Part shown: positions 1,335-46,282 of the stretch, one piece after another
Position numbering within the stretch: the stretch's first letter is position 1
How the letters are laid out: the number at the start of each line of letters is the position of its first letter
IMG/VR virus record: IMGVR_UViG_3300017963_000271
Span: 4,026 to 68,025 of that record
DNA: 64,000 nucleotides
Source: a virus
Reading direction: 5' to 3' (one strand)
Translations under genes and position numbers: made by a program
The notes under the pieces: model-generated
What the model saw: the letters and a program-made list of their open reading frames with translations, nothing else
Told to the model about the DNA's origin: nothing
Database searches by the model: none

Positions 1335-2128
1335 TCATCCGGTGACGTGCCCTCAATGATTTGACATGCCACAAAGGGAAACGTAGCCATAGGACCCTCG
1401 AACACTTCACCTACGACCATAGGGTTATGCCGGCTCTCAAGGATCTCTACGGAAAAAGGCGGCGTGACATCATATCCTTTGGCCTCCATGTCGCGCTTAT
1501 AAATCCTTCGCACACGACACATGCCCTGGACGAGGTATCCCGTGTTGTTAAAGCCGGATCTCTCATAGGTCCCATCCCATACCGAATCAGCCTTGTCTCC
1601 TTTGTTGACATACTTCTTTTTCATCTGATGAAGAAAGATGACATTCTTATCAGACTTGTCAAGCGGCATGCGGATCACGCGGCGGAATTCTGAATTGATG
1701 TGAACATAGTGATGAGGCTTGACCTGGGAGATCTTACCGAAATAAGCCACCCGGGCGAGATCCCAGAGCTCCGTGGCTGTATCCACAACAATTGTTCGCA
1801 CGTCTTTGATACCCAGGATGCGCTCCCACACGTCCACGAACTTGTTCCATTGTTGCTCCGCTTCAGTCTGTGTCGTCTGTGTATTGAGCTGCGGCATTGG
1901 CAGGTTGTAAACCTTTATTTCCTTGTCCGGGAACTTGCTGATTACGCCTTCAAGTCCAACATCCATGTTGAAAAGGAGTACGGGTCCCGGCGCGCCCAAT
2001 GCAAAATGTGTCTTTCCCTGTTTCTCCAGCCCCTCAACGCTCAAGATTATACGCTTGTGTATAGTTGTGTCAGCAGTCTCGAATCCCAAGCCTTGAAGTA
2101 CGGCGGCATTAGCTTGTGAAATTGTCAT
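1325..2128 (-). CDS. Sak4/AAA_24-like P-loop ATPase (recombination)
   Basis: Walker A GLEKQGKT, Walker B IVVDT; adjacent to a PD-(D/E)XK nuclease. Confidence 0.7.
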   Translation of the reverse strand: MTISQANAAVLQGLGFETADTTIHKRIILSVEGLEKQGKTHFALGAPGPVLLFNMDVGLEGVISKFPDKEIKVYNLPMPQLNTQTTQTEAEQQWNKFVDVWERILGIKDVRTIVVDTATELWDLARVAYFGKISQVKPHHYVHINSEFRRVIRMPLDKSDKNVIFLHQMKKKYVNKGDKADSVWDGTYERSGFNNTGYLVQGMCRVRRIYKRDMEAKGYDVTPPFSVEILESRHNPMVVGEVFEGPMATFPFVACQIIEGTSPDDWS

Positions 2129-2758
2129 CTATTTTCCTCCTCTTTTTAGCACGTCATCATAACACCAAATATCCTCAGCCCGCATTTTCTTGGCGTGATT
2201 TAAAATCATTTCCCAGTTCTCATCGATCTCTTGCTGCGTGTATGTAAACAGGTACGGCCCGGGGGCTTGTGGACCTTTGCGCTCTTTCCAGTCCCCAAAG
2301 AGATAAAGTATCCTGAGCAGTGTAGCATCAGTTCCAATCATCTTGCAATATGCTTTGAACTGTGTCATGTAATAGAAGTTATCTTCAAGCGGGTGCCGGA
2401 TTGATTTCCACGTGACTTTGTACTCATGATCACAGCCGCGATTAGGATCGAGTGGGTGCTCACCAAAGCCGTCAGGGGAGCCTATGATGTTGTCAAGTTC
2501 TAGCTCATCCAGGCGTACAGCTTCGGGGATATAGCGCTTGGCGTAGGCGTCTTCAAGAACCTCTTCCCAGCAGAAGCCTATCTCTGCGGCGATGTTAAGT
2601 TCCCAGTCGGCATAAGGCGCGATGTCGAGTAGATACATGATGTAGCGTATGATGTCAGATACGTGAAGCTTGCCGGTCTCCTTAGCCTGGCTGCGCGGGA
2701 GTCCTGAGCCGACAGGGATGAATGGTTGTTGGAGATCTGTGACTATCATGAGGGCCAC
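2129..2758 (-). CDS. PD-(D/E)XK exonuclease (Cas4/RecB-like fold)
   Basis: LHVSD, GSPDG, HEYKVT and QFKAYC motifs. Confidence 0.7.
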   Translation of the reverse strand: MALMIVTDLQQPFIPVGSGLPRSQAKETGKLHVSDIIRYIMYLLDIAPYADWELNIAAEIGFCWEEVLEDAYAKRYIPEAVRLDELELDNIIGSPDGFGEHPLDPNRGCDHEYKVTWKSIRHPLEDNFYYMTQFKAYCKMIGTDATLLRILYLFGDWKERKGPQAPGPYLFTYTQQEIDENWEMILNHAKKMRAEDIWCYDDVLKRGGK

Positions 2759-2925
2759 TTCTTCACTTTCTCCCGGAATAACCGGGCCAGTTCTGTTGCC
2801 ATGCGCTCCAACTCTTTTGCTTCGTGTTGTTTCCAGGCATTAAGGCCGGAGTCTTTACCGTGACAGTAACCCCATGCCGCGCCCACTACAAATGCGAATG
2901 CTATACCTAAGATCCATAAAATCAT
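2746..2925 (-). CDS. Small membrane protein
   Basis: MILWILGIAFAFVVGAAWGY; ATG at 2925 follows GGGAG, formed by the end of the GGY array. The ORF-track start at 2973 lies inside the array. Confidence 0.6.
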   Translation of the reverse strand: MILWILGIAFAFVVGAAWGYCHGKDSGLNAWKQHEAKELERMATELARLFREKVKKWPS

Positions 2926-2934
2926 TTTAATTCT

Positions 2935-3209
2935 CCCTGCCACACCTCGCCAAGCCTCGCCACGCCTTGGCATACCAAATCAAAGTTCCTTACCATACCA
3001 CGACCCACCATACCTCAACCCGCCTAACCTCACCTTATCAATTCCTTGCCTTGCCTTAACACGCCCCAACAAACCTTGCCATCCCATGTCTATAAATCCC
3101 TGCCTTGCCCCGCCAGGCTTCACCCTACCAAAACCAGCCACGCCTGATCGGATAAATCCCTGCCAAACCATAACCTGCCTCACCAAACCGAGCCTAGACA
3201 AGCCACGCC
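2935..3209 (-). ncRNA. Array of five GGY-NN pentamer units, putative guide-RNA array
   Basis: Minus strand: 10, 10, 9, 9 and 8 pentamers in strict 5-nt phase, mostly GG(C/T)NN; each unit ends GG(C/T)A(A/G)-GG and units are separated by AT-rich linkers of 7-11 nt. Confidence 0.8.
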
Positions 3210-3216
3210 GTAATTG

Positions 3217-3813
3217 TCATACCAAAAACTGCGCACTAAAACGTCCGTATTGAGGTCGGTGATCACAGAATCCAACAAAATGCCCACAATTTTCTACCGC
3301 CGAGATCAGCGTGTCTTTACTGATAAAATCCGGATTATAAACATAGGACACTTCACAAGACCAATTATGAAAGATGGGACGCGCCCGCAGGATCTTCCTC
3401 TTTTGTACATTGACCATTGTAATATACACATGTTCCTCAAAAAACTTGTCAAGCTCAGGATTGGGAAATATGTCTGTCGGAGTAAATTCGATCCGTGTAC
3501 CGTCATACTTTAAGGGTACTGCCGAGACAACCTGTGCACCACTCTCAAAAAGAGGACCTGTCCGCGTCTTCCGCGCGCCCATAAGCGTCGCTTTGTATAA
3601 AACCTCAATTGGAAGTACCACTATTCCATTTTCTGTGTAAAGTCCGCCCTCCCATTCGAGTCGTGCAAGGTAATACAGATCTGCTTCGGTCTTGTTTCTC
3701 TTTTTTGCCAAAGGACTTATCACCTTTGCAGGTTTTGCCAACGGATTTGCCAATATTCCGTTGTGCATGATCAAAGAACTGATTCCTTCTAACTTCATTT
3801 TCAATGTTTCCAT
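3217..3813 (-). CDS. Stand-alone Cas7/RAMP-like protein paired with the GGY-NN array
   Basis: LEGISSLIMHN first strand, VVLPIEVLYKAT (like the RAMP P.IPGSSLKG motif), RARPIF..W, and C-terminal G-loop GFCDHRPQYGRF; strong GGAGGAGG RBS. Confidence 0.7.
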   Translation of the reverse strand: METLKMKLEGISSLIMHNGILANPLAKPAKVISPLAKKRNKTEADLYYLARLEWEGGLYTENGIVVLPIEVLYKATLMGARKTRTGPLFESGAQVVSAVPLKYDGTRIEFTPTDIFPNPELDKFFEEHVYITMVNVQKRKILRARPIFHNWSCEVSYVYNPDFISKDTLISAVENCGHFVGFCDHRPQYGRFSAQFLV

Positions 3814-3885
3814 GCCTTGTTTCCTCCTCCGGTTCTTGTATGTGTATAATTCTAACTATGCCTCCGCCCATCAGCGCCCCTCCTA

Positions 3886-4698
3886 CTATCTGCCTTCCTG
3901 GTGTGAATCAAGCTTCCAGATGCGATGCTCCCACGTGTAATGACCGTCAAGAATATCAAAAAAGACTAGGCCTGTTGTCGGATAAAATACCGAAGTCAAT
4001 TCCGTGGCAATGTTCCCTCCCCAGGTTTGAAGACAAGGAGTAATCATGGAGAGATATGTCTCGTCTCCACGATAATGGAATACATGCCTATGTGCCCGCA
4101 AAACAATGTCTGGAATATGCGCTGGAACACCATGTCGCGCATGATTGGCTACTACTACATTGTATTCTTTAGCCAGCACGTTACCAAGTGTGCGCGGATC
4201 GTTGGACCCACCGATCTTATGCTTGAGATGAAACCTGACACCATCGATGTTGTATTCTTCCACGATCTTGTGGAATTCATAGCCATACTTCTCGGCCAGG
4301 CGCTGCTCCACAGGCTTAGCAGTGTCCCCTACGTGCCAGCCGGTGCCCATGACAAAGACGCCCTTCTCAGCACTAATGCGCTGGAGGATAGTCTCGAATG
4401 CCAGGGCCTGGTTATCTATCTCATTGATCAGGATCTCATCATTACGGGCAGCCGTCTTGGATGGTCCGTGCACCGCATCTCCGAGATTGATGAGGTAATC
4501 TATCTTACCCAATCGGCCCACTTCCCGATCAAAGCATTTCCAAAGTTCCTTGCGCCGTGTGTTGTGGTAAGGCGAATCATAACCACAATCAGGAGAGATG
4601 AGCCCTGTTGTCGCTCCGGTATGCGTGTCACTAATGACGAGTGCGCGTTTGCGCTGCTCACTCTCGAGCTGCTTTTTACTGAATCGTTCTAACCACAT
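3886..4698 (-). CDS. Calcineurin-like metallophosphoesterase
   Basis: SDTH, LGDAVHG, GTGWH, H and AHRH metal-binding motifs. Confidence 0.8.
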   Translation of the reverse strand: MWLERFSKKQLESEQRKRALVISDTHTGATTGLISPDCGYDSPYHNTRRKELWKCFDREVGRLGKIDYLINLGDAVHGPSKTAARNDEILINEIDNQALAFETILQRISAEKGVFVMGTGWHVGDTAKPVEQRLAEKYGYEFHKIVEEYNIDGVRFHLKHKIGGSNDPRTLGNVLAKEYNVVVANHARHGVPAHIPDIVLRAHRHVFHYRGDETYLSMITPCLQTWGGNIATELTSVFYPTTGLVFFDILDGHYTWEHRIWKLDSHQEGR

Positions 4699-4711
4699 GG
4701 TAAGGTCTCCT

Positions 4712-4939
4712 TTATTCGATAATTAGTGTGCCGTCGTCCCCCACAGGCAGTACAAAATCGCGTGGTAAGCATGTTACCTTGCGCACAACGCCATCAGGTC
4801 TAAATTGAAGCAAATACCAGCGGGCGCCCGCGCTATCCACAAGTGTAAGGGTGACAACACCTTTGGGATCTTTCACTAATTCTAATTCCACGGTTTCTTT
4901 GTTTCTAAGGATAATTTCTTCTTGAATCGTCAATTGCAT
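4712..4939 (-). CDS. Hypothetical protein
   Basis: 75-aa ORF with AGGAGGAGG RBS. Confidence 0.65.
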   Translation of the reverse strand: MQLTIQEEIILRNKETVELELVKDPKGVVTLTLVDSAGARWYLLQFRPDGVVRKVTCLPRDFVLPVGDDGTLIIE

Positions 4940-5027
4940 GTTGCCTCCTCCTAAGATGTGAGTACCTGGGGGCTGTTACACCCCCAGGCAGAGATTGCTC
5001 AACCTTCAATCGAGCGGTCTTTTCGAG

Positions 5028-20594: not shown

Positions 20595-23500
20595 TTACTC
20601 CTCCTCTTCAAACCTGAAATAGGTTGATGGTATCTCCCCGCTTTCCGGGGGTTGCTCTCTTATTGGTCCGTAGGTCGTAGCGGGAATTACCGAGTCGGCA
20701 ATCATCTTCGACAACACGTACCATTTTTCCTGTTTGGATCTCGCGGCCATGTATTCCTCGTAGTACATCCATCCGTATCTACGAGACAGGGCCACAAGCA
20801 TATTGCGATCCACGGCATCCGGCTTGAGGGCCATAGCCACGAAATGCTTCTGCTCCAGCGGTTCTTCATTGACGAGTTTGGCCACGCCCTCCTTGGCATC
20901 AAGCAGCGTGCGGGCGTTCTCGCGTTGGATCTCTTTCTTGCCGCGCCGGATCTCCTCACGTTTGCCATAATCACTGACCTTGAGAAACCGGCCGATGATA
21001 TTACTAGCGCCGGGCTCGTCTGGCAGCTTGATCATCCAGTCGGCAACCTTGCTATTGATCGGGAAGCCCAGGACAGTCTCGAGCTCCTCAGCTACCTTCT
21101 CTACCTCATCATAGCGAAAGCGATAGACAATCGACGCGCCCATCTTGTTGAGAAGGTACATACCGAATTGCTTATGCGACCTGGCATCTCGCGCCAGGAA
21201 CACTTGCTCGTCAACAGCGTGGCGGCCGTAAAAATTATCATAGGGATTATTCCCCCCAGCGTATTCCACAATAGCAGCAACCACATCAATAGCAGGGTTC
21301 CACGTAGGAGCCTGACCGGCCATGTAGTCGCCGAGTTTGAGCGCCGCATCCGCGAAGCCGAAGTCCTTGCCCCGGAGAAGCAGCGAGAATACGCCGCCCA
21401 GGAAGCGTGAAGTCTCATCAGTAGGAATACGGAGATACACAGACTTCCCAGATTTAGTAAGTCCCAGAGGGATACAGATATAGTTGAGAAAATCATAAGT
21501 AGACACGCCTCGCATCACACGACTAAGTTTTGATTCTTCATCGTCCCCATCCAAGAAACCCCAGAGTATAGCGGCCATAAGCAGCTTAGGCACGAATATG
21601 AAGGCCATCTTCTTCATCCACCACGCCTTAGGATCCTCCTTCATCGCCACAACATCGCCGCGATAGCCTTCCTTCATGGCATTGGAGAAAAGCAGCAGAT
21701 TGTTGTAAATGGAGTGTGCGCGGCCGGAGCGTAAAAAATCTGGAGATCCACCCCGCGTCCGTACGATATGAGCAATGGCGTCCTGTGGCATATCCGGGAA
21801 TTTATCCTTCATATACGTGTAAGACGCGACTTTGGTTGTACGCTCCAAGGCCCTTCCCACGCCGGCGAAGTAATATTCCCCGACCTTAGCGATATTGCTG
21901 ACGTAATTGAACAGGTGCCCAAATGGTCTCAGGATCTTGGTATCGTAAGCCTTCCCAGGCATCATATGGTGCATCTTTAACAGGCGCTCAATCTGCTTAT
22001 CTTCGGGTAACAGTCCACGCACGTCTGCGATAGAGATCAACATGTTGCCGTCTTGCATCTCCTTGATGACATCATCCGGTATGCCGAAGACGCTGCGAAA
22101 TGCCGGTTTGATACCCTTCAGGTAGTTCTTCGTGAAGGATAAGACGCCAGCTTTAGGCAACGACATATAGGCGCGCTGCAAGTCTCGGAAGAATGCATTG
22201 AATACCCAGAACCCATAGTTGATCTCTGTAAACACCATCCTGAACGGCTTGGCCAGCACACTTAGCCCCTTAGCAATTGCTGAGGAGTGATAGGGATTCT
22301 GTGTGAACATGTCGGCCAGCTCACGATTGATGTAATAGCCACAAGCCTTGCCTTTATCCAAGTAGACCAATAGGCCTTGATCCTTGCGCGTTGGTTCCTG
22401 GATAGCTTGGAAGCGGCCATTCCACTTCTTTTTGGCGGGTTCTATTTTGACATCCGGTAATGCTTCCTGATGCTCCAAGTAAAACTTCACGATAGACTTG
22501 ATCGCAATGTTCCTGTTTACAGAATGAATAAACGATATATCCTTCAAGATCGTGGCTGTAGCCGGGTTGAATATCTTCTTGAACGTACCGATCTGCTGGA
22601 AGACGCGCATGCCGGCAGCCGTACCATAGCGATCCATGAAGTAGTCCTTCGCACTAAAAGATACGTACTGCTCACGCTCCCGGAACAGTTTGACAAGCTC
22701 CGTGTCATACACCTGGGCAGCCTCTGCCTTGTCGAGAAAGTACTGTTTGTGTATGGCCCGGAAGTTATCCAGTGCCTCTCGCAATTTGCCCCATTGATAT
22801 TCTGTGAGCTCTTCGTCTTTCATGGCATTGATTTTCTCGAGAGCAGTCTCTGCGTCCCACCCCTCGGGATTGGCCATGGCATAGCGTTCAAACACGATGC
22901 GCTCGAGAAATGCCAACAGACCAAACTCACGATCCCATTCCAAGTTGGCTTCTTTCAGAGGCTTGAGGACATTATTCATAACCATGGTCAGCATGCCCTC
23001 GATCTCAGAGCCGGAATAAACCATGTTTTCGACTTTGTAGCGCGGGTTGTCCTCGGGCGAGATTTGTCCTTCTCCTACGCGCTTGATGTCTTTCAATAAG
23101 TAGTGGTAGGCGTCAAAGGTATCGCGCTTCAGGTTATCCCAGAAATTACTGCGGTCCCAGTCCTTCTTCATCAGCTCATAGTATTTGTCATTGCCGTCAT
23201 CAAACATCCGATAAATGGACATGGTCCGCTCACGATCAATCTCCCCGCTGCGGATGAGGTATTGAATCTCGTTGTACTCATCCCGGAATTCGGGCTTGGT
23301 ATCCAACCAGGAGAAGAAGGCCTCGTAGAATTTGGGGGCCATACGCCGGAGCATTTGAGGACTATTCAGCAGCACAGAAAGCGCATCAGCGTAAAGTTCA
23401 TTTGAGCTGTAACGATAGGCCGTGTACTTGGGATCTGCGGCCGCATCAAAGGGCTTCCACAGATGCGTGAGCCGGATAAGCTCCTCGCGGATTTCCGTAG

Positions 23501-26500
23501 CAACCCACAATTGCCGGCGCCGTATCTCCTCTTCGACCAGCCTGGCGTACTTCTCCGCGATGGTCTTTTCGGGCAGCTCCTCCGGGACTTCGATCTTACG
23601 GCCGGTGGGTTCCTGAATCTTCTTAGCGAAACGCTGGACTTCACTGGGGACCCGGCCCTTCAGAGCCGCTTTGACCAGGAGCTTCTTGGCGGCTGTATTG
23701 AGCGTGGCGATATACGCGTAGAGCTTAGGGCTCAGCAGTTTAGCCTTCTCAATGGCGTTCCAGATCGCCAGAACGTCATCCGGCGTAATCGGGAGCTCCT
23801 TGGTAATCATTTCGTCGATCAGTTTGGTTCGGCCCTTCCCAGCCTCCAATAGACGCTTAGCTTCGAGCCTGAGCCGCCTCCTGTCCTCCTCAGTAAGCTC
23901 TCCGGGGGCACCGGGATGGTGAGGTAGGGTCCGCTTGAGATATCGCCTCAGCGTGGCGATACGGCCCAAAATATTGCCTCTGCCCATTTCCTTTGAGGGC
24001 AGCCAATCAATAAGGTGGCCGATTTCGTGGGCCAGGACCAGCTTTGCCTGCGCCGGATCCTTGAAAAGATCTGCCCGGATCTTCATCATCTCTGGGTGTC
24101 CCGGGATGAACATACCACGGGTAGTGGCCTTTCGGAATTTGAGCACAACCTGTGGTAGTTGGCCTTGCATTAATTTCTCGGCTAAACGCACTAGTTCTGG
24201 CAGGCGCAGCAAATTCAGATTGTCGCGCTTCCAGTCCGGATCATTCTCAGGGTCCGGCTGTTGGAATTCCTCGTCAAATTGGTCCCCGCGGTCCTTGAGG
24301 ACTTTCTTATCATCGACTTTGAGCCGGTCCTCGGAATACGGGTCCTGGAGATCTACTGTTTCACCAGCGGGTGCCTCTTCGGAATATCTAATAGTAGTGC
24401 TGTACAGGAGTTCTCCTTCATCGGGACCGATTTTGATCCCGCTTTCTCTAGCCACTTCATTATAGAAGTCAGGTAATCGGGCTTCCCACTCGGCTCCCGC
24501 AATTTCTCCTTCGGCATAGATTTTCTCTCCTTTTGTCTTTCCATGGAATTTGAGTATATGTTTCTTGTAGTCAGCCTTGGCTGTGTCAAAGTCGGCCTCT
24601 ACATCGCCCAGGAATTCGGCGTGCACTATGGAGTGCTCAAGCGTGCCTTCCTTGCCGGCGCTTTTGTAGAGTGTATCCAGCCGGTCCTTGAGAGCTTCTT
24701 CCTCCATGGCGTTGCTGGGCACGAAGTAATCAAAATGATAATTGGCGCCGTCATGCCGCAGCACGTAATCCGGCAGCTGGGCCTTTCGTAATGATCGGCC
24801 TATTTTTCCGAGATCCTTTTCCTTGAATTGAAATCGGACGCGTACCCCATTAGGCGCATACTCTGAATGCATCAAAATGACGTTGCGCTGTCCCCGCCGC
24901 ACGCCTACCGTATCGCTCAAAGCTGCGCGTATGGCAGACAGATTACCCTTGACATCTGCCATCAGGCCATACTCCACATTGTTGGCGGTGGCAGCTCCTG
25001 CTTTGGCCAGCGTAGGATAATACTTGGAGATAGTGATAGGGTAATCCTTTATGGCGCCCTGGAGATACTGATGGAAATTAGACGCCAGCCGAGGAACAAC
25101 AGCCTTCACCTCGTCGAGGTCAGTCGGCAATTCAATAGCCGTATTGACCATATCCGACACGCCAAGAGTAGCTTCAACAGGGTGCTCCTCCACGGGCACT
25201 TCATCGAACGTGTATATAACATCCGTGTGTTCTCCGATTTTGCCGCGGAACCCCTTGAAGTCGCCCGTCTCATAAATGACATTGGCCAGTGCGTTGGGAT
25301 AGATCTGCTGCACTGTACGTTTGCCAGCTTTTACTTCCGGGTCTGTCTTGGCGCGCTCTAGTGCTACGATTCGGTAGTCAAGCTTGTCGTCTACCAGATC
25401 ATAGATCTCATCCTGGTAGATGGTAGTAAGATGTGGCTCAGCATCCCAGAAAAAAGATTCCCGTCGCGTGGCCCCAGGATACCAGTGACCAAGCGGGATA
25501 TACGGATTTTGCTCAGTATGAGCATCCATGTGTGCTTGAACCGAATTCCTGGACCAGGGCCTGGGTTGATCGCCTTCCTTTTTGTGCGTCAATTCCTCCA
25601 AGCGGCGTTCCTGACCATCATCGAGAGGCCTGCCAAATAAATCCATAGTTTCTGTGCGTTGTTGCAGAGCATTCAATTCTTTATTTTCAGCAGCCGTAAG
25701 TTTGGCCGGACGGTCCGCACCGCGAATCATATAATAGAGACCCTTACCAAAATGGACCATTTGCTGCGGCTCCGCGGTTAGCGCCGTGAACATGGCTCGA
25801 CCTAGACTCTTTTTAGGAGCCGCTTGTATAGCCTCCTCGAAATGCGTGGCGGTCCCAGTATATCCAGCGCCTGTAGCGAACCACAAAGCTGCCTGGATCC
25901 CAGCGGGCGGGATGTCCATCTGCTTGGATACTTCCAAAACGTCATCCACTATCTGCCGGCGCAGTGCCTTAGATACGCGGAAGCCACCCCACATGATGTT
26001 GTAACCCCAGAGGCGAGGCATATGCCGATCAATAACTACATTCTCATCCTGGGCGCGCGGGTACAGCATGGAATAAACCATGGCACCGATCTTGTCGCCA
26101 TAGAATTGTTGATAATCGGCCAGTTCTTTAAACTTTCCTTTATCTTGACCCTTCCACACAAAGTTGATTTTCTTGGCGTCATCCTTGCTTATACCAAGAC
26201 CGTTACCGCCACGAACGACGCCCTTTTTCTCTAGCCGCTTGACAACAGCGCCAGTAATGGTCTGCGCACCTTGAGGCGATGCAGCCTTAGAGACTATGGC
26301 CTGGATCTTTTTAACGCGCTCGATCTCGTTCTTGGGGATCACGCCTTCCCAATGGCCCATGAACTGGTTCCAGTTTTCGTACCAGGGAGCCTCATGTTTG
26401 TACTGTTCTACCAATTCAGTAAGCTTCTGAATGCGGAGTTTCTTAGTCTTGGGCAGAATGGGCCGATCCATGACCAGATACTTAATACCGTCTACTGTCC

Positions 26501-29500
26501 GAAAGTGCTCAGTGACAGTCCGCATACCATAAAGCCGTTTGACCGTGCGCTTCCTGGCAGTATCAGATTTGCGGGCCGGACCATAGATAGTGCCAGTTGT
26601 CTTTCCAACAGATACTAAAAAGGGCTTGGCAAAAGGGCCACGACCAACGCCGACACCACTCTTCTCGAGAGCTTTGAGGTGTTCAGTAAGCCTCTCACCT
26701 TCGAGCGGCGCTTTTTCAGTAGGAACCAGTTTGGCTTTGGGCGCACGCTTCTTTTTGAAGAGGCCTATCTGCTCTTTCTTCTCTTCAAACAAGACGCGCT
26801 TGGCGCTGACACGCTCACCCATTTCCAAGCCGCGCGCCATTTCCTCACTCTTGGCAGTGATGCCGACCATCTGAGCTGTGCTGCGGGCGATATAACGCTC
26901 ATCCGCCTGTATAGCATCATAGATGACGCGATCCTTCACAAGCTTTTCGAGTGTAGTACGGCCTTTCATACTCAGCGTGTTGGCTACCTGCGGGCTAATA
27001 TACGCAACCACACGACTGGAGCCGAATGTCGCAGCCTGCTCACGCAGCACATCGGCGACTTCATTGGCATAGAAATCTTCCAGTGTCGTGTAAGGCGTCA
27101 CTTGTAAGGCGCGCACAGTTCCTTGAGAAGTAGTATAGAAAAAGGCCACGGTATTAGGCGGCTCGAATAGGCTCAGCCCCAAAGCGACTACTTGCTTCCG
27201 CGCCTCTTTGCCAGCTATCTTTTCACCAAGCAACGGGTGCGGGCGCGAGGGTTTTAGAAGCTTGTCTTCCCATCCGCGCTGTTCCGCCTCAGGTAATCGG
27301 AATGTGCGAATACGCAGGCTTCCAGGTTCGGTAGGACTCTTCTCGATAGTAGAGTACGTGCCAGAATTAATGATGACATGACCTTTGAACTCTTTCACGA
27401 AACGGAATGCGCGCGAAGTAGCTACAATATCTTCGTCAGATGGTTTAGTAACGCCGCTTGGATGATTATGTAAGAGGTATACTGAATCTGCACCAGTCTT
27501 TTTGATTATCTCTTTCGCGCGGATTCCAAAAGAAGGCCAATCCTCATCAATAAAAGCTTCGGTGATCCCGGCCTTACGAGCAGAAACTGCCTCATGCGAT
27601 ACGACTTTACCAGCTTTCACGTAGATAACATGGGATACTTCGTACAAGGGGTTGCGTGCAATCTGGGCCATCTGGGCAATCCGCAATGTACTCCCGGCCT
27701 CTTTGCCCTTGAACGTGTAGACCGGCTCGGTCCATTCTTCATTGATGCCGACACCTAGAGTTTTGAATTGCTCCTTGACATAATCAGTCACGCTCTTGGG
27801 CTTCAGCTTGGGAAGTTCTTCCTGCTGCTGCTTTTCCGTGATAGCGCGAATTTCTGCATTGGCAGTCTCAGCAACCGGTATGCGCGCGGGAATCTCTTTA
27901 TCGAGCTGTGCCTTAGCGAAATCCAAAACGTCTCGGTAGAACTTCTCATGTATCTCCGGGTTGGTCAGGTACGAACGAACGACAAGGTTTTCATCTAGGT
28001 CGCGTTCGTCAGCCGACTCGATCTGACTAGCCAGCTCTGTACCTTCATACAACGCGAGGTTGTATACATTAACGTGGGAGATAATATCGTCGTTTTTCTT
28101 CAGGAAGTCTAGCGTGCGCCCGTAGGTCTGCGGCGTTTCGGACCAGAACTTGCCACTCTTCTCCTTGCCCGCAAGCCCAACAAGGACATTGGGTACGAAT
28201 CCCATTCCGAGATCACGTATCTTTTGGACAGCAGCGTCCAACTGCTTCGTTCGATGTGGCTTATTAATACGAGCGAGTATGTCATCGTTGTAGCTCTCCA
28301 TTCCCAGCTCTACAAAGCGGACACCGACTTGCTTCAGGAAGTCCGGATCCAGTTTCAGGAAGGCGGGGGCTGTCGTTTGGATAATGAATCCCTGGAAGTC
28401 AGGATTAAATTTCCGGATCCGGTCTGCAATAGATGCAAGATAATTTGCGTTAGGTGCCTGGCCGAAGGTCTTGTCGTCCAGATAGACAAGTTTGAACTTC
28501 ATGCCCTTGAACTGCTCAACCTGTTCGTCAATACTGGCCTGCGGCATAGCCTCGACTTTCTTAGGCACCACACAGAACGCGCACTTGTGAGCGCAACCTG
28601 TAGACATGCAGAGTCTAGGAATAGTACGTGTGCCCTGGAAATGGCGCTGGTCATACCCGAACTTGTACTCATAGCCAAGAGCCTTAGCAGCCGACTCGAG
28701 AGACTCGTGGAATTCGATGTTCGACACGCCCTTGAAGTACGCCGGGTCCACATAGCCGCCAACGATAACGCGGCCTTTAAAGTTCTGAGCGATGCGCTTG
28801 ATGACTTCCTTGTTGACATCCATGGCACTAAATAGGATGGTGTCAAAGCCGCGCGCATTCATTTGTTCCGCAGCGGTTTCGGGGTTACGCACTACCACAG
28901 CGGCGGCATCATCAAAGGTGTTAGCGGCGACGACTAACCATTCAGGAACTTCCCAGAAATCAACCGGGCGCCAATAACCACCGCGCTTAGCGTAAAGCTT
29001 GTTGAAATAGTCTTCGGCCACATAGGTCTCACCTTCACGCCTAGTGGCTATGGTGGCTATCTGAACAAGCGCTGTTTTGGTACGTCCTTTCTTAGGATCA
29101 ATGAATAAGTTGGTATTCTGCGCTGATCCTTGAAGCGCTTCGTTGTAATCACGACCAATAGAATATTCAGGACCTTCTTTTGGAAGAAGGCTCTCGGCAC
29201 CTTCCCGCAGAAGAGTCTCTTCAATAGTTGCTGCGTTCTCGTCGAAGATGACATAGTTGTAAGCCTTTTCTCCCGGCTTACCTTTTTTGCGCCGCGTAAG
29301 AGTCTCAGTAGGATAGCGAATACCATCTACGCCAGCGCGGAGCAGGAACATAGATACCTCTTGACGCGGGTTTGCCACCGCGGGTATCTCTTCCCAGCGC
29401 ATTCCTTTATCCTTAACAAGAGAATCCCTGTATGTATCCGTCAGCCATTCATAAAGGAATCGCCCAGTAGGAGACATGTCCGGCGTAAGCACGCGCGCCA

Positions 29501-31910
29501 CTTCTTTGGCAAAGGAGCCGCCTTCCTTCTTTGCCTGCTTGCGAACCTTTTCCAGGGTATCCTGGAACACAGGTTCATACCAATCAAGATACTCGTAATC
29601 TTCAGGCTTCTTGCCTTTGTGCAGCGTGACTTTGTAGACACGCCCTCCACCTTCAAGCACAACATTTCCACCGGTTTCCTGTATTTGTTGGTAAACTTTC
29701 TTAATGCGTTCGAGTTGCGCCTGCATGTATTGTATGTTCGCATTATCTAGTGGTGTACCGGCCGCGAGACGTGTCTCTATAGTATCTTCCCATACAGCGA
29801 TCTCTTCTTCAAAGTCAGCGCGCAAATCATGCGGAACTTCTTTCGTCTCGGATTTTGCCAGCTCTTCTAACCAGAAAGATACCCGTTCAGGATAGGATCC
29901 ATCAACGTCATCCTGATCAAGCGTAAGATTCCCTACTTTGTACTGTCCAGGATAACGCCCTTGTTCCGCATAATGTCGTGCAATTTCTTGAACATCTGTG
30001 AAGTACAAACCCCAGCCAAAAGCCTGTGCGCCTTCTCCTGTACCTATGGCTTGAGTCTTGAATGTCTCAAACTCACGCGGACTGCCGTGCCAGACAGTAT
30101 GCTCACGCAATGTCTTGTCTAGCCGCTCAGGCTCTTCAGCAGCATCAATGGCCTCCTTGAGGATTAAGGACTGGCGAATCTCTTCCATGGCCGCTTGGGT
30201 TTGCCCAGCCTCTTGCAATATCTTGGCGCGTTCCAGACGGTCTTCTCTATCAAGCCGGACCTGCTCTATCTCTTCAGGGGCCGCGGTAACACCCCAAGCA
30301 GCAGCTTCAGCCTTAGTAGCAAACGGGGCTCTGGGCGCACCTTCGTATTCTTCGTATTCAACTTCCGGCTCACCTTCAGGAGGGGCTTCTTCAAGCTCTT
30401 CTGCCGGAGGTACAAGCTTTGCACCCATCTCCTCAGGCACTGCTTCTTCAGGCTTGCCGGCAGGGGGCGCACCAGCTTCTTTTTTAGCAACTTCCCGTTC
30501 AACACCCATACGCTTGGCGGCCACACGTTCAGTTACAAGTTCGCCCATACCAAACATGGGACCGAGAATAGCGCCTATACTGGCAGCAGTACCGACCTCT
30601 TTCCAATTGACAGGACGGCCTTCGGCGACGGCGGAGATGATTTCCTGACCACCTTCCTGACTACCTTCCATCAAACTGCTGACTATGGCCTTGCGTGTAA
30701 AACGTCCAGTCTCGCCGAAGATGCCAAGCCTATTTGTGAAACCTATGAGAGCAGTATTAAGTAAGAAGGAAAGACGCGCACCCTTCTCAGCTTTCTCTTT
30801 ACTCTTTGTAGCCTCAAGAATCTGCCGATATGAATGGCCAGCCTCAGTCATGGACTCGAGAACGGTACTGGTAGAAAGGCCTAACCACCTGGCCATGGTG
30901 GCCGCTGCTTTACTTCCTTGACCTAAGCGCATAGTGGCCGACATGACTCCAAAGCCGGGAATAAAGAACGTGGCCATACTGCCTGCGCCCATGGCAAGCT
31001 GGTCAATGTAGTTGGGATCTTCGGGAGCGAGATTCTTTTGCAATTCTCCACCAAGATCGGCGATTTCCTTGGCGATCTCACTGTTGAGCAGCCATTCCAT
31101 ACTGCCGACGAAACCTTCACCTACGCCAAGCGCACCACTGATAATGTCATCACCAAGACGTTCAATGTAGCGAAGGCGCCGGTCTACTGGTTCGAGCTCC
31201 ATGAGATCCATAACTGCCTGAGCACGATCTTCAGGTGTAAGCTGCGACGCTTTCTCACGCATCTCGCGGACCTGCTGCGCCACCCAGCCTTTTGGTTTCG
31301 CTTCGATAGGGGCTTGCGCGATTTGTGGTCCTTCTTGCTGCCGACGCGCCATTTCGGTTACATAGTCTATGGCACCCTTGACATCCTCATGTGTGATAAC
31401 GCGCTTGGCAGGACCCTCAAATATGCCGGTACTTAGCGCTTCTGCTTGAGCAGGAGAAGGCTCACCAGTGATGGTGTCGTGCCCACCGACATAACGATCA
31501 GGGTGTCCGCTGAGTTTAAATTCCGAAGGCCAATGATACGTTCCCTTTTCATCGGGCACGGGAAAAGCGTCAGCGCGGAATGCGCCTCGGTAATCATAGA
31601 AATGCTGAGGGTCATCGGGATCAGCGTTTATGCCAGTCTCTTCAGCCCAAGAGCCATACCAATCCTTGAATTCTTCTTCCTCTTCCTGGGTCCAGTCTTG
31701 TGGGCGCAATGGTCCACGATCTGTGTCGCCGGCAAATTCTCGCATGGGCTCTAGCGGTTCAGCCCCAGAGAAGGCTTCAGCAATTCGATCTCTAAAAGAC
31801 GGATCAGGATAGTATTCTCTCTGGATGAATGCGTTGATATCATCAATGGGCATGTCATCCGGAAAGTCTATACTCAAATTTTTATCTGGGAGATCAACCG
31901 TGATCGGCAT
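20595..31910 (-). CDS. Giant polyvalent (likely DNA-ejection) protein, 3771 aa
   Basis: ART-PolyVal-like WHGS..GEGAQAFGWGLYF; radical SAM CAHKCAFC; JAB HNHPSG..PS.ED; VIDRH glycosylase-like; HEIGH metallopeptidase; LPD38-like C-terminus (YLRIP). Confidence 0.85.
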   Translation of the reverse strand: MPITVDLPDKNLSIDFPDDMPIDDINAFIQREYYPDPSFRDRIAEAFSGAEPLEPMREFAGDTDRGPLRPQDWTQEEEEEFKDWYGSWAEETGINADPDDPQHFYDYRGAFRADAFPVPDEKGTYHWPSEFKLSGHPDRYVGGHDTITGEPSPAQAEALSTGIFEGPAKRVITHEDVKGAIDYVTEMARRQQEGPQIAQAPIEAKPKGWVAQQVREMREKASQLTPEDRAQAVMDLMELEPVDRRLRYIERLGDDIISGALGVGEGFVGSMEWLLNSEIAKEIADLGGELQKNLAPEDPNYIDQLAMGAGSMATFFIPGFGVMSATMRLGQGSKAAATMARWLGLSTSTVLESMTEAGHSYRQILEATKSKEKAEKGARLSFLLNTALIGFTNRLGIFGETGRFTRKAIVSSLMEGSQEGGQEIISAVAEGRPVNWKEVGTAASIGAILGPMFGMGELVTERVAAKRMGVEREVAKKEAGAPPAGKPEEAVPEEMGAKLVPPAEELEEAPPEGEPEVEYEEYEGAPRAPFATKAEAAAWGVTAAPEEIEQVRLDREDRLERAKILQEAGQTQAAMEEIRQSLILKEAIDAAEEPERLDKTLREHTVWHGSPREFETFKTQAIGTGEGAQAFGWGLYFTDVQEIARHYAEQGRYPGQYKVGNLTLDQDDVDGSYPERVSFWLEELAKSETKEVPHDLRADFEEEIAVWEDTIETRLAAGTPLDNANIQYMQAQLERIKKVYQQIQETGGNVVLEGGGRVYKVTLHKGKKPEDYEYLDWYEPVFQDTLEKVRKQAKKEGGSFAKEVARVLTPDMSPTGRFLYEWLTDTYRDSLVKDKGMRWEEIPAVANPRQEVSMFLLRAGVDGIRYPTETLTRRKKGKPGEKAYNYVIFDENAATIEETLLREGAESLLPKEGPEYSIGRDYNEALQGSAQNTNLFIDPKKGRTKTALVQIATIATRREGETYVAEDYFNKLYAKRGGYWRPVDFWEVPEWLVVAANTFDDAAAVVVRNPETAAEQMNARGFDTILFSAMDVNKEVIKRIAQNFKGRVIVGGYVDPAYFKGVSNIEFHESLESAAKALGYEYKFGYDQRHFQGTRTIPRLCMSTGCAHKCAFCVVPKKVEAMPQASIDEQVEQFKGMKFKLVYLDDKTFGQAPNANYLASIADRIRKFNPDFQGFIIQTTAPAFLKLDPDFLKQVGVRFVELGMESYNDDILARINKPHRTKQLDAAVQKIRDLGMGFVPNVLVGLAGKEKSGKFWSETPQTYGRTLDFLKKNDDIISHVNVYNLALYEGTELASQIESADERDLDENLVVRSYLTNPEIHEKFYRDVLDFAKAQLDKEIPARIPVAETANAEIRAITEKQQQEELPKLKPKSVTDYVKEQFKTLGVGINEEWTEPVYTFKGKEAGSTLRIAQMAQIARNPLYEVSHVIYVKAGKVVSHEAVSARKAGITEAFIDEDWPSFGIRAKEIIKKTGADSVYLLHNHPSGVTKPSDEDIVATSRAFRFVKEFKGHVIINSGTYSTIEKSPTEPGSLRIRTFRLPEAEQRGWEDKLLKPSRPHPLLGEKIAGKEARKQVVALGLSLFEPPNTVAFFYTTSQGTVRALQVTPYTTLEDFYANEVADVLREQAATFGSSRVVAYISPQVANTLSMKGRTTLEKLVKDRVIYDAIQADERYIARSTAQMVGITAKSEEMARGLEMGERVSAKRVLFEEKKEQIGLFKKKRAPKAKLVPTEKAPLEGERLTEHLKALEKSGVGVGRGPFAKPFLVSVGKTTGTIYGPARKSDTARKRTVKRLYGMRTVTEHFRTVDGIKYLVMDRPILPKTKKLRIQKLTELVEQYKHEAPWYENWNQFMGHWEGVIPKNEIERVKKIQAIVSKAASPQGAQTITGAVVKRLEKKGVVRGGNGLGISKDDAKKINFVWKGQDKGKFKELADYQQFYGDKIGAMVYSMLYPRAQDENVVIDRHMPRLWGYNIMWGGFRVSKALRRQIVDDVLEVSKQMDIPPAGIQAALWFATGAGYTGTATHFEEAIQAAPKKSLGRAMFTALTAEPQQMVHFGKGLYYMIRGADRPAKLTAAENKELNALQQRTETMDLFGRPLDDGQERRLEELTHKKEGDQPRPWSRNSVQAHMDAHTEQNPYIPLGHWYPGATRRESFFWDAEPHLTTIYQDEIYDLVDDKLDYRIVALERAKTDPEVKAGKRTVQQIYPNALANVIYETGDFKGFRGKIGEHTDVIYTFDEVPVEEHPVEATLGVSDMVNTAIELPTDLDEVKAVVPRLASNFHQYLQGAIKDYPITISKYYPTLAKAGAATANNVEYGLMADVKGNLSAIRAALSDTVGVRRGQRNVILMHSEYAPNGVRVRFQFKEKDLGKIGRSLRKAQLPDYVLRHDGANYHFDYFVPSNAMEEEALKDRLDTLYKSAGKEGTLEHSIVHAEFLGDVEADFDTAKADYKKHILKFHGKTKGEKIYAEGEIAGAEWEARLPDFYNEVARESGIKIGPDEGELLYSTTIRYSEEAPAGETVDLQDPYSEDRLKVDDKKVLKDRGDQFDEEFQQPDPENDPDWKRDNLNLLRLPELVRLAEKLMQGQLPQVVLKFRKATTRGMFIPGHPEMMKIRADLFKDPAQAKLVLAHEIGHLIDWLPSKEMGRGNILGRIATLRRYLKRTLPHHPGAPGELTEEDRRRLRLEAKRLLEAGKGRTKLIDEMITKELPITPDDVLAIWNAIEKAKLLSPKLYAYIATLNTAAKKLLVKAALKGRVPSEVQRFAKKIQEPTGRKIEVPEELPEKTIAEKYARLVEEEIRRRQLWVATEIREELIRLTHLWKPFDAAADPKYTAYRYSSNELYADALSVLLNSPQMLRRMAPKFYEAFFSWLDTKPEFRDEYNEIQYLIRSGEIDRERTMSIYRMFDDGNDKYYELMKKDWDRSNFWDNLKRDTFDAYHYLLKDIKRVGEGQISPEDNPRYKVENMVYSGSEIEGMLTMVMNNVLKPLKEANLEWDREFGLLAFLERIVFERYAMANPEGWDAETALEKINAMKDEELTEYQWGKLREALDNFRAIHKQYFLDKAEAAQVYDTELVKLFREREQYVSFSAKDYFMDRYGTAAGMRVFQQIGTFKKIFNPATATILKDISFIHSVNRNIAIKSIVKFYLEHQEALPDVKIEPAKKKWNGRFQAIQEPTRKDQGLLVYLDKGKACGYYINRELADMFTQNPYHSSAIAKGLSVLAKPFRMVFTEINYGFWVFNAFFRDLQRAYMSLPKAGVLSFTKNYLKGIKPAFRSVFGIPDDVIKEMQDGNMLISIADVRGLLPEDKQIERLLKMHHMMPGKAYDTKILRPFGHLFNYVSNIAKVGEYYFAGVGRALERTTKVASYTYMKDKFPDMPQDAIAHIVRTRGGSPDFLRSGRAHSIYNNLLLFSNAMKEGYRGDVVAMKEDPKAWWMKKMAFIFVPKLLMAAILWGFLDGDDEESKLSRVMRGVSTYDFLNYICIPLGLTKSGKSVYLRIPTDETSRFLGGVFSLLLRGKDFGFADAALKLGDYMAGQAPTWNPAIDVVAAIVEYAGGNNPYDNFYGRHAVDEQVFLARDARSHKQFGMYLLNKMGASIVYRFRYDEVEKVAEELETVLGFPINSKVADWMIKLPDEPGASNIIGRFLKVSDYGKREEIRRGKKEIQRENARTLLDAKEGVAKLVNEEPLEQKHFVAMALKPDAVDRNMLVALSRRYGWMYYEEYMAARSKQEKWYVLSKMIADSVIPATTYGPIREQPPESGEIPSTYFRFEEEE

Positions 31911-46101: not shown

Positions 46102-46190
46102 GTGCACTTGTGCACTAGAACACACCGACACGACGACACACGCGCACACGGACACTTGAACACAGACCCCTCGGCACACGTATATATAGT
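46102..46190 (+). repeat. 89-bp octamer-array element, copy B
   Basis: 8 x NNNCACNN + ACCCCTCGGCACACGTATATATAGT; five more octamers at 46243-46282. Confidence 0.85.
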
Positions 46191-46282
46191 ATTTTATATG
46201 TGCACAAAGGCCTAATTTTGCAAAATTGATGCCAAAATATACGTGCACACGGACACATGTGCACGCGCGCACACGGACACGG

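What the first reader, a model, noticed from the sequence alone, without database searches (positions are those of the whole stretch)
2935..3813. Solo Cas7/RAMP-like gene followed by a GGY-NN pentamer array: candidate phage RNA-guided system
Seen: 7 nt after the stop of the 198-aa gene, the minus strand switches to strict 5-nt periodicity. U1 3209-3160 GGCGT GGCTT GTCTA GGCTC GGTTT GGTGA GGCAG GTTAT GGTTT GGCAG; U2 3149-3100 GATCA GGCGT GGCTG GTTTT GGTAG GGTGA AGCCT GGCGG GGCAA GGCAG; U3 3090-3046; U4 3034-2990; U5 2976-2937. Each unit is closed by GG plus an AT-rich linker. Positions 1-3 are conserved (GGY), positions 4-5 vary. Knowledge: Cas7/RAMP proteins polymerise along RNA with a fixed nucleotide step, and this protein has RAMP-like first strand, P-x-x-x-L-x-K segment and terminal G-loop. 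No cas1/2/3, nuclease partner or classical repeat-spacer array is present. Inference: one protomer binds each GGY and displays NN, so each unit is a separate guide. From memory this matches the recently reported phage 'VIPR' architecture; that attribution needs a literature check.
Basis: partly seen in the sequence, partly recalled or inferred. Interest (0 to 1): 0.96.

Follow-up and report, generated by a model that had tools for sequence, protein, structure and literature searches.

The report
Phage VIPR locus, five guide RNAs

Summary
A 198-aa gene (3217-3813, minus) is followed 7 nt later by five tracts of 9-11 YNNGG pentamers, separated by 6-10-nt A/T-rich linkers. Of 49 pentamers, 39 are strict YNNGG.

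VIPR is published in three 2026 bioRxiv preprints.
- A profile of the protein's family matches PDB chain 36pp_D, "SUSP1 Vipr protein", at E 2e-49 over its full length.
- Its AlphaFold model (pLDDT 96.5) matches Csm3/Cmr4/Cas7 RAMPs (Z up to 10.4).
- Five published GGY-contacting residues map to identical residues.
- 77 of 79 homologous viral loci carry same-strand pentamer tracts: 250 tracts against 6 on the opposite strand.

What is particular here:
- The Vipr sits in a well-supported clade of 16 rows. All 15 others carry a vap1-like accessory gene, and this 68-kb genome has none.
- The array is unusually compact and has no long 3' tail.

Natural targets were not established. The best lead is a 1.7-kb metagenome contig where two guides match 14 nt apart at the start of one gene (family-wise p about 0.05). 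No expression data exist.

This scan has already found VIPR loci on other DNA (23 earlier notes).

Verdict: a real feature and a new member of a known kind, of modest interest.

The parts
3217..3813 (-). vipr gene: a 198-aa single-RRM RAMP protein (Vipr)
   Evidence: ORF. PHROG 4652 at E 3e-38, function unknown. No Pfam or NCBIfam hit. Matches SUSP1 Vipr at E 1.5e-19 and 3.3e-21. The family profile matches PDB 36pp_D 'SUSP1 Vipr protein' at E 2e-49. AF2 pLDDT 96.5. Csm3/Cmr4/Cas7 are the top fold matches. H17, E70, R145, D184 and R186 align with the published GGY-contact residues.
3158..3212 (-). vrRNA unit 1: 11 YNNGG repeats, two of them degenerate (GT in place of GG), ending in CAGGG
3148..3157 (-). 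linker 1, 10 nt, A/T-rich, in phase with units 1 and 2
3098..3147 (-). vrRNA unit 2: 10 repeats, ending in CAGGG
3089..3097 (-). linker 2, 9 nt, A/T-rich, breaks the pentamer phase
3044..3088 (-). vrRNA unit 3: 9 repeats, ending in CAAGG
3038..3043 (-). linker 3, 6 nt, breaks the phase
2988..3037 (-). vrRNA unit 4: 10 repeats, ending in TAAGG
2980..2987 (-). linker 4, 8 nt, breaks the phase
2935..2979 (-). vrRNA unit 5: 9 repeats, ending in CAGGG. Its 3' end overlaps the GGAG ribosome-binding site of the next gene.
2746..2925 (-). Context only: a 59-aa hydrophobic small protein that starts 9 nt after the array. It is not a VIPR accessory gene.
   Evidence: ORF. No family hit. No homologue in the other 79 VIPR loci.

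Best explanation
This is a VIPR system of a tailed phage: one vipr gene plus an array of five guide RNAs (vrRNAs).

Most likely mechanism:
1. vipr and the array are transcribed together on the minus strand, as part of the phage's replication/recombination gene block. This is inferred from the 7-nt gap and the absence of a predicted terminator.
2. Vipr protomers bind the transcript one per YNNGG repeat. They hold G1, G2 and Y3 and expose the two N bases. This is shown for SUSP1 Vipr and inferred here from homology and conserved contact residues.
3. Each tract therefore forms a filament of 9-11 protomers. The bare 6-10-nt A/U-rich linkers are cut, probably by a host RNase, leaving five guides of about 45-55 nt. 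This is inferred.
4. Each ribonucleoprotein reads double-stranded DNA by the published code NN-x-NN-x. It forms a gapped R-loop and blocks transcription of a competing mobile element. This is shown for SUSP1 and inferred here.

The guides are 31% G+C at the NN positions and almost free of C, while the phage is about 49% G+C. The intended target is therefore probably an A/T-rich foreign element.

This locus has no vap accessory gene and no long structured 3' tail. The last repeat (CARGG, usually followed by A) may act as the 3' end mark.
For: Published system. Vipr, YNNGG vrRNAs, the 1-nt skip rule, dsDNA binding and transcriptional repression are described in 10.64898/2026.04.26.720920. One protomer per repeat, and the contact residues, are described in 10.64898/2026.04.26.720927.

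Protein membership:
- tblastn against the SUSP1 record gives E 1.5e-19 over residues 1-196. The reverse search gives E 3.3e-21.
- That SUSP1 ORF (28474-29061) has the published locus layout, with a small gene directly downstream and intergenic regions of 450 and 530 nt on either side of the two genes.
- A profile of 41 homologues matches PDB 36pp_D 'SUSP1 Vipr protein' at E 2e-49 over profile positions 1-188 of 189.

Fold:
- The AF2 model has pLDDT 96.5 and pTM 0.89.
- The top-ranked Foldseek matches in the PDB are Csm3 and type VII Cas7 chains. 41 matches have E <= 0.001.
- VIA-align gives Z 10.4 to 8.0 for Csm, Cmr, gRAMP and type IV/VII RAMPs over residues 1-198.

Contact residues. SUSP1 H17, E71, R138, D177 and R179 align with window H17, E70, R145, D184 and R186, all identical. 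W178 aligns with H185 and M72 with V71.

Array. Five tracts of 9-11 repeats lie within the published range of 9-16, and 39 of 49 repeats are strict YNNGG.

Family-wide association. Locus L004 was left out because it is the same phage. 77 of the remaining 79 IMG/VR loci encoding a homologue have at least one same-strand tract of 6 or more in-phase repeats. That is 250 tracts, against 6 tracts in 5 loci on the opposite strand.

Phage context:
- The record is a 68,025-bp virus record rated 100% complete.
- Major head, portal and large terminase genes are present.
- No Cas1 and no CRISPR-like array were found.
- No terminator-like site lies between vipr and the array.
Against: - There is no expression or binding evidence for this locus.
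- No vap gene was found. An HMM built from vap1-like genes finds 19 of the 80 other records searched (18 IMG/VR loci plus SUSP1) and nothing in this genome, even at E <= 10. Published VIPR loci 'typically' have a vap gene.
- No structured tail is present. Linkers are 6-10 nt. The 301-nt stretch folds only slightly better than shuffles (z -2.24), and the predicted pairs are long-range G-U/G-C pairs, not a repeated hairpin.
- 10 of 49 repeats are degenerate.
- SUSP1 K33, which is needed for silencing, aligns with S33 here, although the alignment is loose in that region. W178 is H here.
- No convincing natural target was found.
Confidence: 0.9

Rival explanations
1. The array is real VIPR RNA, but it is not five separate guides. 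It acts as one or two long vrRNAs. Units 1 and 2 are in phase, giving 23 pentamer slots. Alternatively it is cut at places other than the linkers.
For: The start-to-start distance between units 1 and 2 is 65 nt, a multiple of 5. Relatives in the same clade have uninterrupted tracts of up to 29 repeats. The preprint describes 'staggered' arrays in which the end of one vrRNA is the start of the next (fig. S18 legend).
Against: The other three junctions break the phase, with spacings of 59, 51 and 58 nt. Every unit ends in the CARGG motif that marks tract ends across the family: AA or AG is the last NN in 51% of 210 unique tracts, against 14.5% at internal repeats. Each unit has 9-11 repeats, inside the published range of 9-16.
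Confidence: 0.15
2. The locus is a decaying or idle remnant. It lost vap1, its guides have drifted, and it no longer silences anything.
For: It is the only vap1-less member of a clade of 16 rows, and it sits on a long branch of 1.46. 10 of 49 repeats are degenerate. No clear target was found.
Against: The ORF is intact. Five of the seven aligned GGY-contact residues are identical. The identical locus is present in contigs of two metagenome runs from two different studies, although either run may be the source of this record. In the preprint, vipr plus vrRNA alone repressed GFP, and vap1 only enhanced phage protection. The paper describes internal degeneracy of vrRNAs as frequent.
Confidence: 0.1
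3. The pentamer tracts are unrelated to the neighbouring gene. They would be a coding repeat (the 73-aa ORF at 2980-3201) or a DNA-level element such as G-quadruplex DNA or iterons.
For: An open frame of 73 aa spans units 1-4. GG every 5 nt could in principle form two-tetrad quadruplexes.
Against: A 5-nt period moves through all three frames, so no residue repeat is conserved. Tracts lie on the same strand as vipr and next to it in 77 of 79 loci (250 tracts against 6). The published system shows that such tracts are RNA bound by Vipr.
Confidence: 0.02

Closest known systems
Type II VIPR of Escherichia phage SUSP1 (Vipr YP_009199429.1, Vap1, four vrRNAs; bioRxiv 10.64898/2026.04.26.720920 and 10.64898/2026.04.26.720927; PDB 36pp)
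   Same: Homologous Vipr of about 200 aa. Same GGY-contact residues. YNNGG repeats on the same strand beside the gene. Phage-borne. The window's nearest relatives carry a gene homologous to SUSP1 vap1.
   Different: Only 25-27% protein identity. No vap1. All five guides lie directly downstream, with none upstream. Guides are 9-11 repeats long, separated by 6-10-nt linkers. In SUSP1 the transcripts are about 100 nt, with a conserved tail of about 40 nt that forms a pseudoknot.
VIPR loci with 'staggered' or otherwise compact arrays (fig. S18 legend of 10.64898/2026.04.26.720920), and the compact arrays seen here in L047, L083, L042 and L046
   Same: Guides follow one another with almost no spacer. 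In those four loci the gaps run from -3 to 14 nt.
   Different: The figure itself could not be seen. The legend describes 1-nt overlaps, whereas this array has distinct 6-10-nt A/T-rich linkers. The compact arrays found here lie in other Vipr clades.
Class 1 CRISPR backbone RAMPs (Csm3, Cmr4, Cas7)
   Same: An RRM core with a glycine-rich loop and a thumb hairpin. Best fold matches reach Z 10.4. The protein oligomerises along a guide RNA with a fixed step (for Vipr).
   Different: No Cas1 or CRISPR array, and other cas genes were not searched for. The step is 5 nt instead of 6. The guide is noncontiguous. The target is dsDNA, bound without cleavage. Guides are genome-encoded and not acquired.

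Membership tests
VIPR (Vipr + vrRNA) | The protein is a homologue of experimentally characterised Vipr | tested here: met
   SUSP1 Vipr matched at E 1.5e-19 and 3.3e-21. Family profile against PDB 36pp_D 'SUSP1 Vipr protein': E 2e-49, full length.
VIPR (Vipr + vrRNA) | Single-RRM RAMP fold with a G-loop and a thumb | tested here: met
   AF2 pLDDT 96.5. Csm3/Cmr4/Cas7 are the top matches by Foldseek and VIA-align, Z up to 10.4. The beta-hairpin at 129-148 carries R145, which aligns with the SUSP1 thumb residue R138. The C-terminal loop carries D184-H185-R186, which aligns with the SUSP1 G-loop residues D177-W178-R179.
VIPR (Vipr + vrRNA) | Residues that hold G1, G2 and Y3 of each repeat | tested here: met
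   Five of the seven aligned contact residues are identical (H17, E70, R145, D184, R186). W178 aligns with H and M72 with V. The backbone contact K33 aligns with S33 (residue list).
VIPR (Vipr + vrRNA) | Tandem YNNGG repeats beside vipr, with GGY conserved and NN variable. The paper screens for at least 4 repeats, and characterised vrRNAs have 9-16. | tested here: met
   Five tracts of 9-11 repeats starting 7 nt after the stop codon. 39 of 49 are strict. Information is 0.88, 1.86 and 1.27 bits at Y, G and G, against 0.27 and 0.29 bits at the two N positions.
VIPR (Vipr + vrRNA) | The array accompanies the gene across homologues | tested here: met
   77 of 79 loci. 250 same-strand tracts against 6 opposite-strand tracts.
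VIPR (Vipr + vrRNA) | vrRNAs are expressed, processed and bound by Vipr | not testable with these tools
   The step is described under Tried and rejected.
VIPR (Vipr + vrRNA) | Guides match natural targets by the 1-nt skip rule | tested here: inconclusive
   Exact-match scans gave hit numbers close to a rough chance expectation. One contig (L100) is matched by two guides 14 nt apart. In a permutation control, 18 of 400 replicates gave an equally close match (at most 1 mismatch) by any guide anywhere in the 19 loci.
Type II VIPR (SUSP1-like) | vap1 accessory gene next to vipr | tested here: not met
   The vap1 HMM finds 18 IMG/VR loci plus SUSP1 and nothing in the 68-kb genome at E <= 10. tblastn E values are above 0.4. 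The window's flanking genes have no homologues in the other VIPR loci. The Vipr nevertheless sits inside a vap1-bearing clade with support 99/97, so the most likely history is loss of vap1.
Type II VIPR (SUSP1-like) | Conserved 3' tail of about 40 nt with a hairpin and pseudoknot | tested here: not met
   Linkers are 6-10 nt. No repeated hairpin appears in the fold. The paper states that array architecture varies between types, so this feature does not define VIPR as a whole.
CRISPR-Cas class 1 | CRISPR repeat-spacer array and cas1/cas2 adaptation genes | tested here: not met
   No Cas1 (PF01867) in the genome, while the control genomes gave hits. No repeat-spacer array. cas2 and cas3 were not searched for separately.

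The most novel reading that the evidence does not exclude
This may be a naturally minimal VIPR. Within a clade that otherwise always carries vap1, this phage would have dropped the accessory gene and the long tails and packed five short guides head to tail, separated only by 6-10-nt A/U-rich linkers. If that is right, three things follow:
- Vipr plus RNA is sufficient in nature.
- Guide length is set by where the repeat phase breaks, together with a conserved CARGG end repeat.
- Maturation relies on host RNases cutting the unprotected linkers.

The guides, at 31% G+C and nearly free of C, would be aimed at an A/T-rich rival element. Two of them bracket the ribosome-binding site and codons 7-16 of one gene on contig L100.
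Probability: 0.3. Interest if true: 0.45.

Novelty: new member of a known kind. Interest (0 to 1): 0.3.

Why it matters
VIPR is a very recent discovery and is proposed to be the viral ancestor of CRISPR RAMP effectors. Each well-characterised natural variant helps to define what is essential.

This locus is a candidate for the smallest natural form: one 198-aa protein and five guides in under 900 bp, with no accessory gene and no structured RNA tail. That makes it a convenient test case for two questions: how guides are measured and matured, and whether vap1 is dispensable.

It adds no new kind of system. This scan has already met VIPR loci on other genomes.

Tried and rejected
Self-targeting. 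Scanning the 68-kb genome with all five guides under skip rules 0-3 gave at best 16 of 22 and 16 of 20 matching bases for skip 1. Only the array itself matched under skip 3.

Targets in other VIPR loci. 79 loci (539,288 bases) were scanned. There was no excess for skip 1 over skips 0, 2 and 3: 12 positions with at most 3 mismatches, against 13, 11 and 7.

Exact 1-nt-skip scans of public collections.
- Viral contigs, guides 1 (the 10 repeats after the first), 2 and 4 at full length: 0 hits each.
- Viral contigs, guide 5: 2 unrelated hits.
- Guide 1, 10-repeat form (first repeat left out), in genome contigs: 4 hits in four unrelated taxa, with no second guide nearby.
- Guide 4, full length, in metagenome contigs: 0 hits.
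- Viral contigs, with the conserved last repeat dropped (for guide 1 also the first repeat): guide 1 gave 5 hits in two families. One is a single-ORF contig of about 3.4 kb whose product carries a GDD motif; I take it to be an RNA-virus polymerase, which makes it an implausible target. The other is a 64-aa ORF (lysis-cassette reading is my guess from the sequences, untested), where the skip base falls on codon position 1.
- Viral contigs, trimmed guide 2: 0 hits.
- Viral contigs, trimmed guide 4: 3 hits in small ORFs of 37 and 48 aa. The skip base is on the wobble position, but the shared peptide is largely forced by the pattern itself. tblastn of the 48-aa ORF against phages found nothing.
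- Metagenome contigs, trimmed guide 2: 5 hits with G+C from 0.34 to 0.75, most of them apparently chance.
- By my own rough estimate, with database sizes assumed and not measured, 18 specified bases should give a few chance hits per collection. I therefore treat all single hits as chance.

The L100 lead. Guide 2 matches 18 of 20 bases and guide 5 matches 15 of 18, on the same strand and 14 nt apart. The sites lie over the start of a 208-aa ORF. Guides with permuted NN order gave an equally close match (at most 1 mismatch) somewhere in the 19 hit loci in 18 of 400 replicates. Within L100 alone they did so in 2 of 20,000 trials. The skip base of guide 2 falls on codon position 1, not on the wobble position. 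The ORF has no PHROG family, no phage tblastn or blastn match, and only one homologue. A second near-match in L090 (guide 4, 16 of 18 bases) lies 4.6 kb from the guide 1 hit and is not significant: at least two pairs with 2 or fewer mismatches occurred in 39 of 300 permutations.

Expression. No RNA holder is listed for this stretch. Laid contigs of two DNA runs are identical over 2000-5000, and either may be the source of the record.

Rfam. Only two sub-threshold chance matches were found, and no hammerhead ribozyme between guides.

Neighbouring genes as new accessory genes. The 59-aa, 209-aa and 270-aa neighbours have no Pfam or PHROG hit. Of the 209-aa and 270-aa ones, only the 270-aa protein has an NCBIfam match, and that is far below cut-off (14.9 bits against 445). 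None has a homologue in the other 79 VIPR loci. The 209-aa protein is unrelated to the 197-aa ORF of L005 that I had guessed might be a nuclease.

The G-rich tract near 52,930-52,990 as a solo vrRNA. Rejected by eye, because the third position of its pentamers is not a pyrimidine.

VIPR type. The assignment to type II is therefore by inference only.

Complex prediction was not run. A Vipr filament is a case the tool text advises against, and oligomerisation is already shown for the homologue.

The second structure job, the protein atlas and the representatives search were not used.
Full report
OBSERVATION

On the minus strand, a 198-aa ORF (3813-3217) ends in TGA. After 7 nt the sequence becomes 5-periodic.

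In the published YNNGG register there are five tracts:
- 3212-3158: 11 repeats
- 3147-3098: 10 repeats
- 3088-3044: 9 repeats
- 3037-2988: 10 repeats
- 2979-2935: 9 repeats

The tracts are separated by A/T-rich linkers of 10, 9, 6 and 8 nt. Nine more bases lead to the ATG of a 59-aa gene at 2925.

Of the 49 pentamers, 39 are strict YNNGG. Positions Y, G and G carry 0.88, 1.86 and 1.27 bits, and the two N positions carry 0.27 and 0.29 bits. Lag-5 self-identity is 0.47, and none of 10,000 shuffles reached it.

Nowhere else in the window is there a comparable tract. The one exception is a G-rich stretch near 52,930-52,990 that lacks the pyrimidine at the third position.

LITERATURE

A full-text search found three bioRxiv preprints from one laboratory.

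- 10.64898/2026.04.26.720920. I read the abstract, the whole Results, the Discussion, three Methods subsections and the supplementary figure legends. It defines VIPR as follows. Vipr is a RAMP of about 20 kDa. vrRNAs consist of 9-16 YNNGG repeats followed by a 3' tail. dsDNA is recognised by the NN dinucleotides with one skipped base between them. The outcome is transcriptional repression of competing phages and satellites. There are seven types and six accessory genes (vap1-6), and array architecture is variable.
- 10.64898/2026.04.26.720927. I read the abstract and two Results sections. It shows one protomer per repeat and names the residues that hold G1, G2 and Y3.
- 10.64898/2026.10.15.759431. 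I saw only the abstract and outline. It covers competition between SUSP1 and a satellite.

Supplementary tables were not available.

THE PROTEIN IS A VIPR

- Pfam and NCBIfam give nothing. PHROG 4652, of unknown function, matches at E 3e-38.
- 42 homologues were found in the large protein collection, none of them named.
- 130 GenBank phage records match by tblastn, most of them Escherichia, Salmonella and Shigella phages.
- In the SUSP1 record the match (E 1.5e-19, residues 1-196) falls on ORF 28474-29061. That ORF has a small gene directly downstream and long intergenic regions on both sides of the two genes, which is the layout the preprint describes. The reverse search gives E 3.3e-21.
- I aligned 41 of the 42 homologues. 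P0031, which covers only 74% of the query, was left out. A profile of this alignment hits one PDB sequence only: 36pp_D, 'SUSP1 Vipr protein', at E 2e-49.
- The AlphaFold model has pLDDT 96.5. Its best structural matches are Csm3, Csm5, Cmr4, gRAMP and the Cas7 proteins of types IV and VII, with Z from 10.4 to 8.0 over the whole chain.
- In a global alignment, SUSP1 H17, E71, R138, D177 and R179 correspond to identical residues here. W178 becomes H185, M72 becomes V71 and K33 becomes S33.

THE ARRAY BELONGS TO THE GENE

A scan of IMG/VR found 273 candidate stretches, of which 260 encode a relative. The best 80 were kept. L004 is the same phage, identical over 3,714 bases, and was dropped.

Of the other 79 loci, 77 have same-strand tracts of at least 6 in-phase repeats. 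In total there are 250 same-strand tracts, against 6 tracts in 5 loci on the opposite strand. The median tract is 14 repeats. The two loci without tracts are L067 and L068, and L068 has only about 215 nt of sequence after the gene.

The last repeat of a tract is biased. Its NN is AA or AG in 51% of 210 unique tracts, against 14.5% at internal repeats, and in 5 of 5 units here. The last repeat may therefore be an end mark and not guide.

CONTEXT

- The genome is a 68,025-bp virus record rated 100% complete. It carries major head, portal and large terminase genes.
- It has no tRNA genes.
- A 7.9-kb sample of it has no nucleotide similarity to GenBank phages.
- The locus sits among replication and recombination genes. 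These include an ERCC4-HhH nuclease, an AAA_24/Sak4-like protein, a DEAD/Rad3-like helicase and a BCS1-like AAA ATPase.
- There is no Cas1 and no CRISPR-like array.
- No terminator-like site separates vipr from the array.

WHAT IS PARTICULAR

First, there is no vap gene.
- A gene homologous to SUSP1 vap1 follows vipr in the window's nearest relatives.
- An HMM built from these genes finds 18 of the 79 IMG/VR loci plus SUSP1, and nothing in this genome even at E <= 10.
- I built a tree of 66 rows: the window, SUSP1 and 64 distinct proteins from the loci. L004, the truncated L063 and 14 identical copies were left out. The window falls in a clade of 16 with support 99/97, and all 15 other members carry vap1. 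Its branch is long (1.46), so the exact sister group is unsure.
- The window's own flanking genes have no homologues in the other VIPR loci.
- Loss of vap1 is the simplest reading.

Second, the array is compact.
- In the clade, tracts of 6-29 repeats lie on both sides of vipr. 11 of the 15 loci listed have an upstream tract. Gaps between adjacent tracts are 24-40 nt and one of 143 nt, or a vap1-sized gap of about 530-830 nt.
- Here, five tracts follow one another with gaps of 6-10 nt and none lies upstream.
- Equally tight arrays occur in other clades (L047, L083, L042, L046), so this layout is not unique.
- No repeated hairpin or tail is predicted, and no ribozyme is found.

Third, the NN positions are 31% G+C. 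C occurs in only 2 of 49 repeats at each N position. The phage itself is about 47-53% G+C.

MECHANISM

Steps 2 and 4 of the mechanism given under Best explanation rest on published experiments with a homologue that is 25-27% identical. Steps 1 and 3 are my inference.

From recall only: all five linkers contain a match to the RNase E preference R-N-cut-W-U-U. That motif is short, and a match is unsurprising in A/U-rich sequence. I offer it as a test and not as evidence.

TARGETS

There is no self-target and no excess of matches in other VIPR loci. Exact-match scans of the three collections gave numbers of hits that I judge compatible with chance. Details are in Tried and rejected.

One lead stands out. 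On the 1,718-nt contig L100 (G+C 0.34), guide 2 matches 18 of 20 bases and guide 5 matches 15 of 18. The two sites are on the same strand, 14 nt apart. They cover the region just upstream of and across the start codon, and codons 7-16, of a 208-aa ORF of unknown function.

Guides with permuted NN order produced an equally close match (at most 1 mismatch) anywhere in the 19 hit loci in 18 of 400 replicates. Restricting to within about 150 nt of the first hit would lower this roughly twenty-fold, but that figure is my estimate and was not computed.

This is suggestive and not established. The skip base of guide 2 is not on the wobble position, and the contig could not be extended.

EARLIER NOTES OF THIS SCAN

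23 earlier findings name VIPR on other genomes. They led me to PDB 36pp and to the structural preprint. I checked both myself.

VERDICT

It is a new member of a known, recently published kind. It has a minimal layout (no vap1, no long tail, five tightly packed guides) that may be useful experimentally. No expression data exist, and its targets are unknown.

Noticed in passing
window 52930-52990 (minus strand): A G-rich tract lies after a short hairpin, in the intergenic region of about 320 nt where the GC skew changes sign. It scores in the in-phase GG scan, but the third base of its pentamers is not a pyrimidine, so it is not a typical vrRNA. It may be a regulatory or quadruplex-prone element.
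   Followed up: partly
window 53665-53741, with related copies at 46140-46163 and 46241-46264: About 4.8 tandem copies of a 16-nt unit (consensus GCACATGAACACACGT), with similar 24-nt copies 7.4 kb away. These could be operator or promoter repeats.
   Followed up: no
window 20595-31910 (minus strand): A single ORF of 3,771 aa, about a sixth of the genome. It was not searched against any family.
   Followed up: no
window 56372-56476: A TGC-rich tandem repeat of period 9/15/33, apparently inside a coding region.
   Followed up: no
L005-L083 (IMG/VR loci) and window units 1-5: Across the Vipr family the last repeat of a tract is biased to C-A-R-G-G. Its NN is AA or AG in 51% of 210 unique tracts, against 14.5% at internal repeats, and in 5 of 5 units here. 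That suggests a conserved 3' end mark, and it matters for target prediction.
   Followed up: partly
window 2935-3212: The NN positions almost lack C (2 of 49 repeats at each position) and are 31% G+C, in a phage of about 49% G+C. The first N is 73% purine. This composition would fit codon positions 1-2 of the sense strand of an A/T-rich target.
   Followed up: partly
L100:52-120: A 1.7-kb metagenome contig where guides 2 and 5 of the window match by the 1-nt skip rule, 14 nt apart, at the start of a 208-aa ORF of unknown function. It is a candidate natural target.
   Followed up: partly
window 3236 (run X3): A low-depth 151-nt contig from a third metagenome matches the 3' part of vipr (3236-3339) with 3 differences. 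It then diverges completely towards the array, so a related phage may have a different gene end or array.
   Followed up: no
L047:2798-3215: Another phage's VIPR array has tracts of 12-18 repeats separated by short purine-rich linkers of about 8-10 nt. Two of its units are near-identical duplicates.
   Followed up: no
L093:1-3258: An IMG/VR contig of about 3.4 kb with one 1,085-aa ORF carrying a GDD motif, which looks like an RNA-virus polymerase. It came up as a chance exact match to guide 1, with the skip base on the wobble position. This shows that wobble alignment alone is weak evidence.
   Followed up: partly
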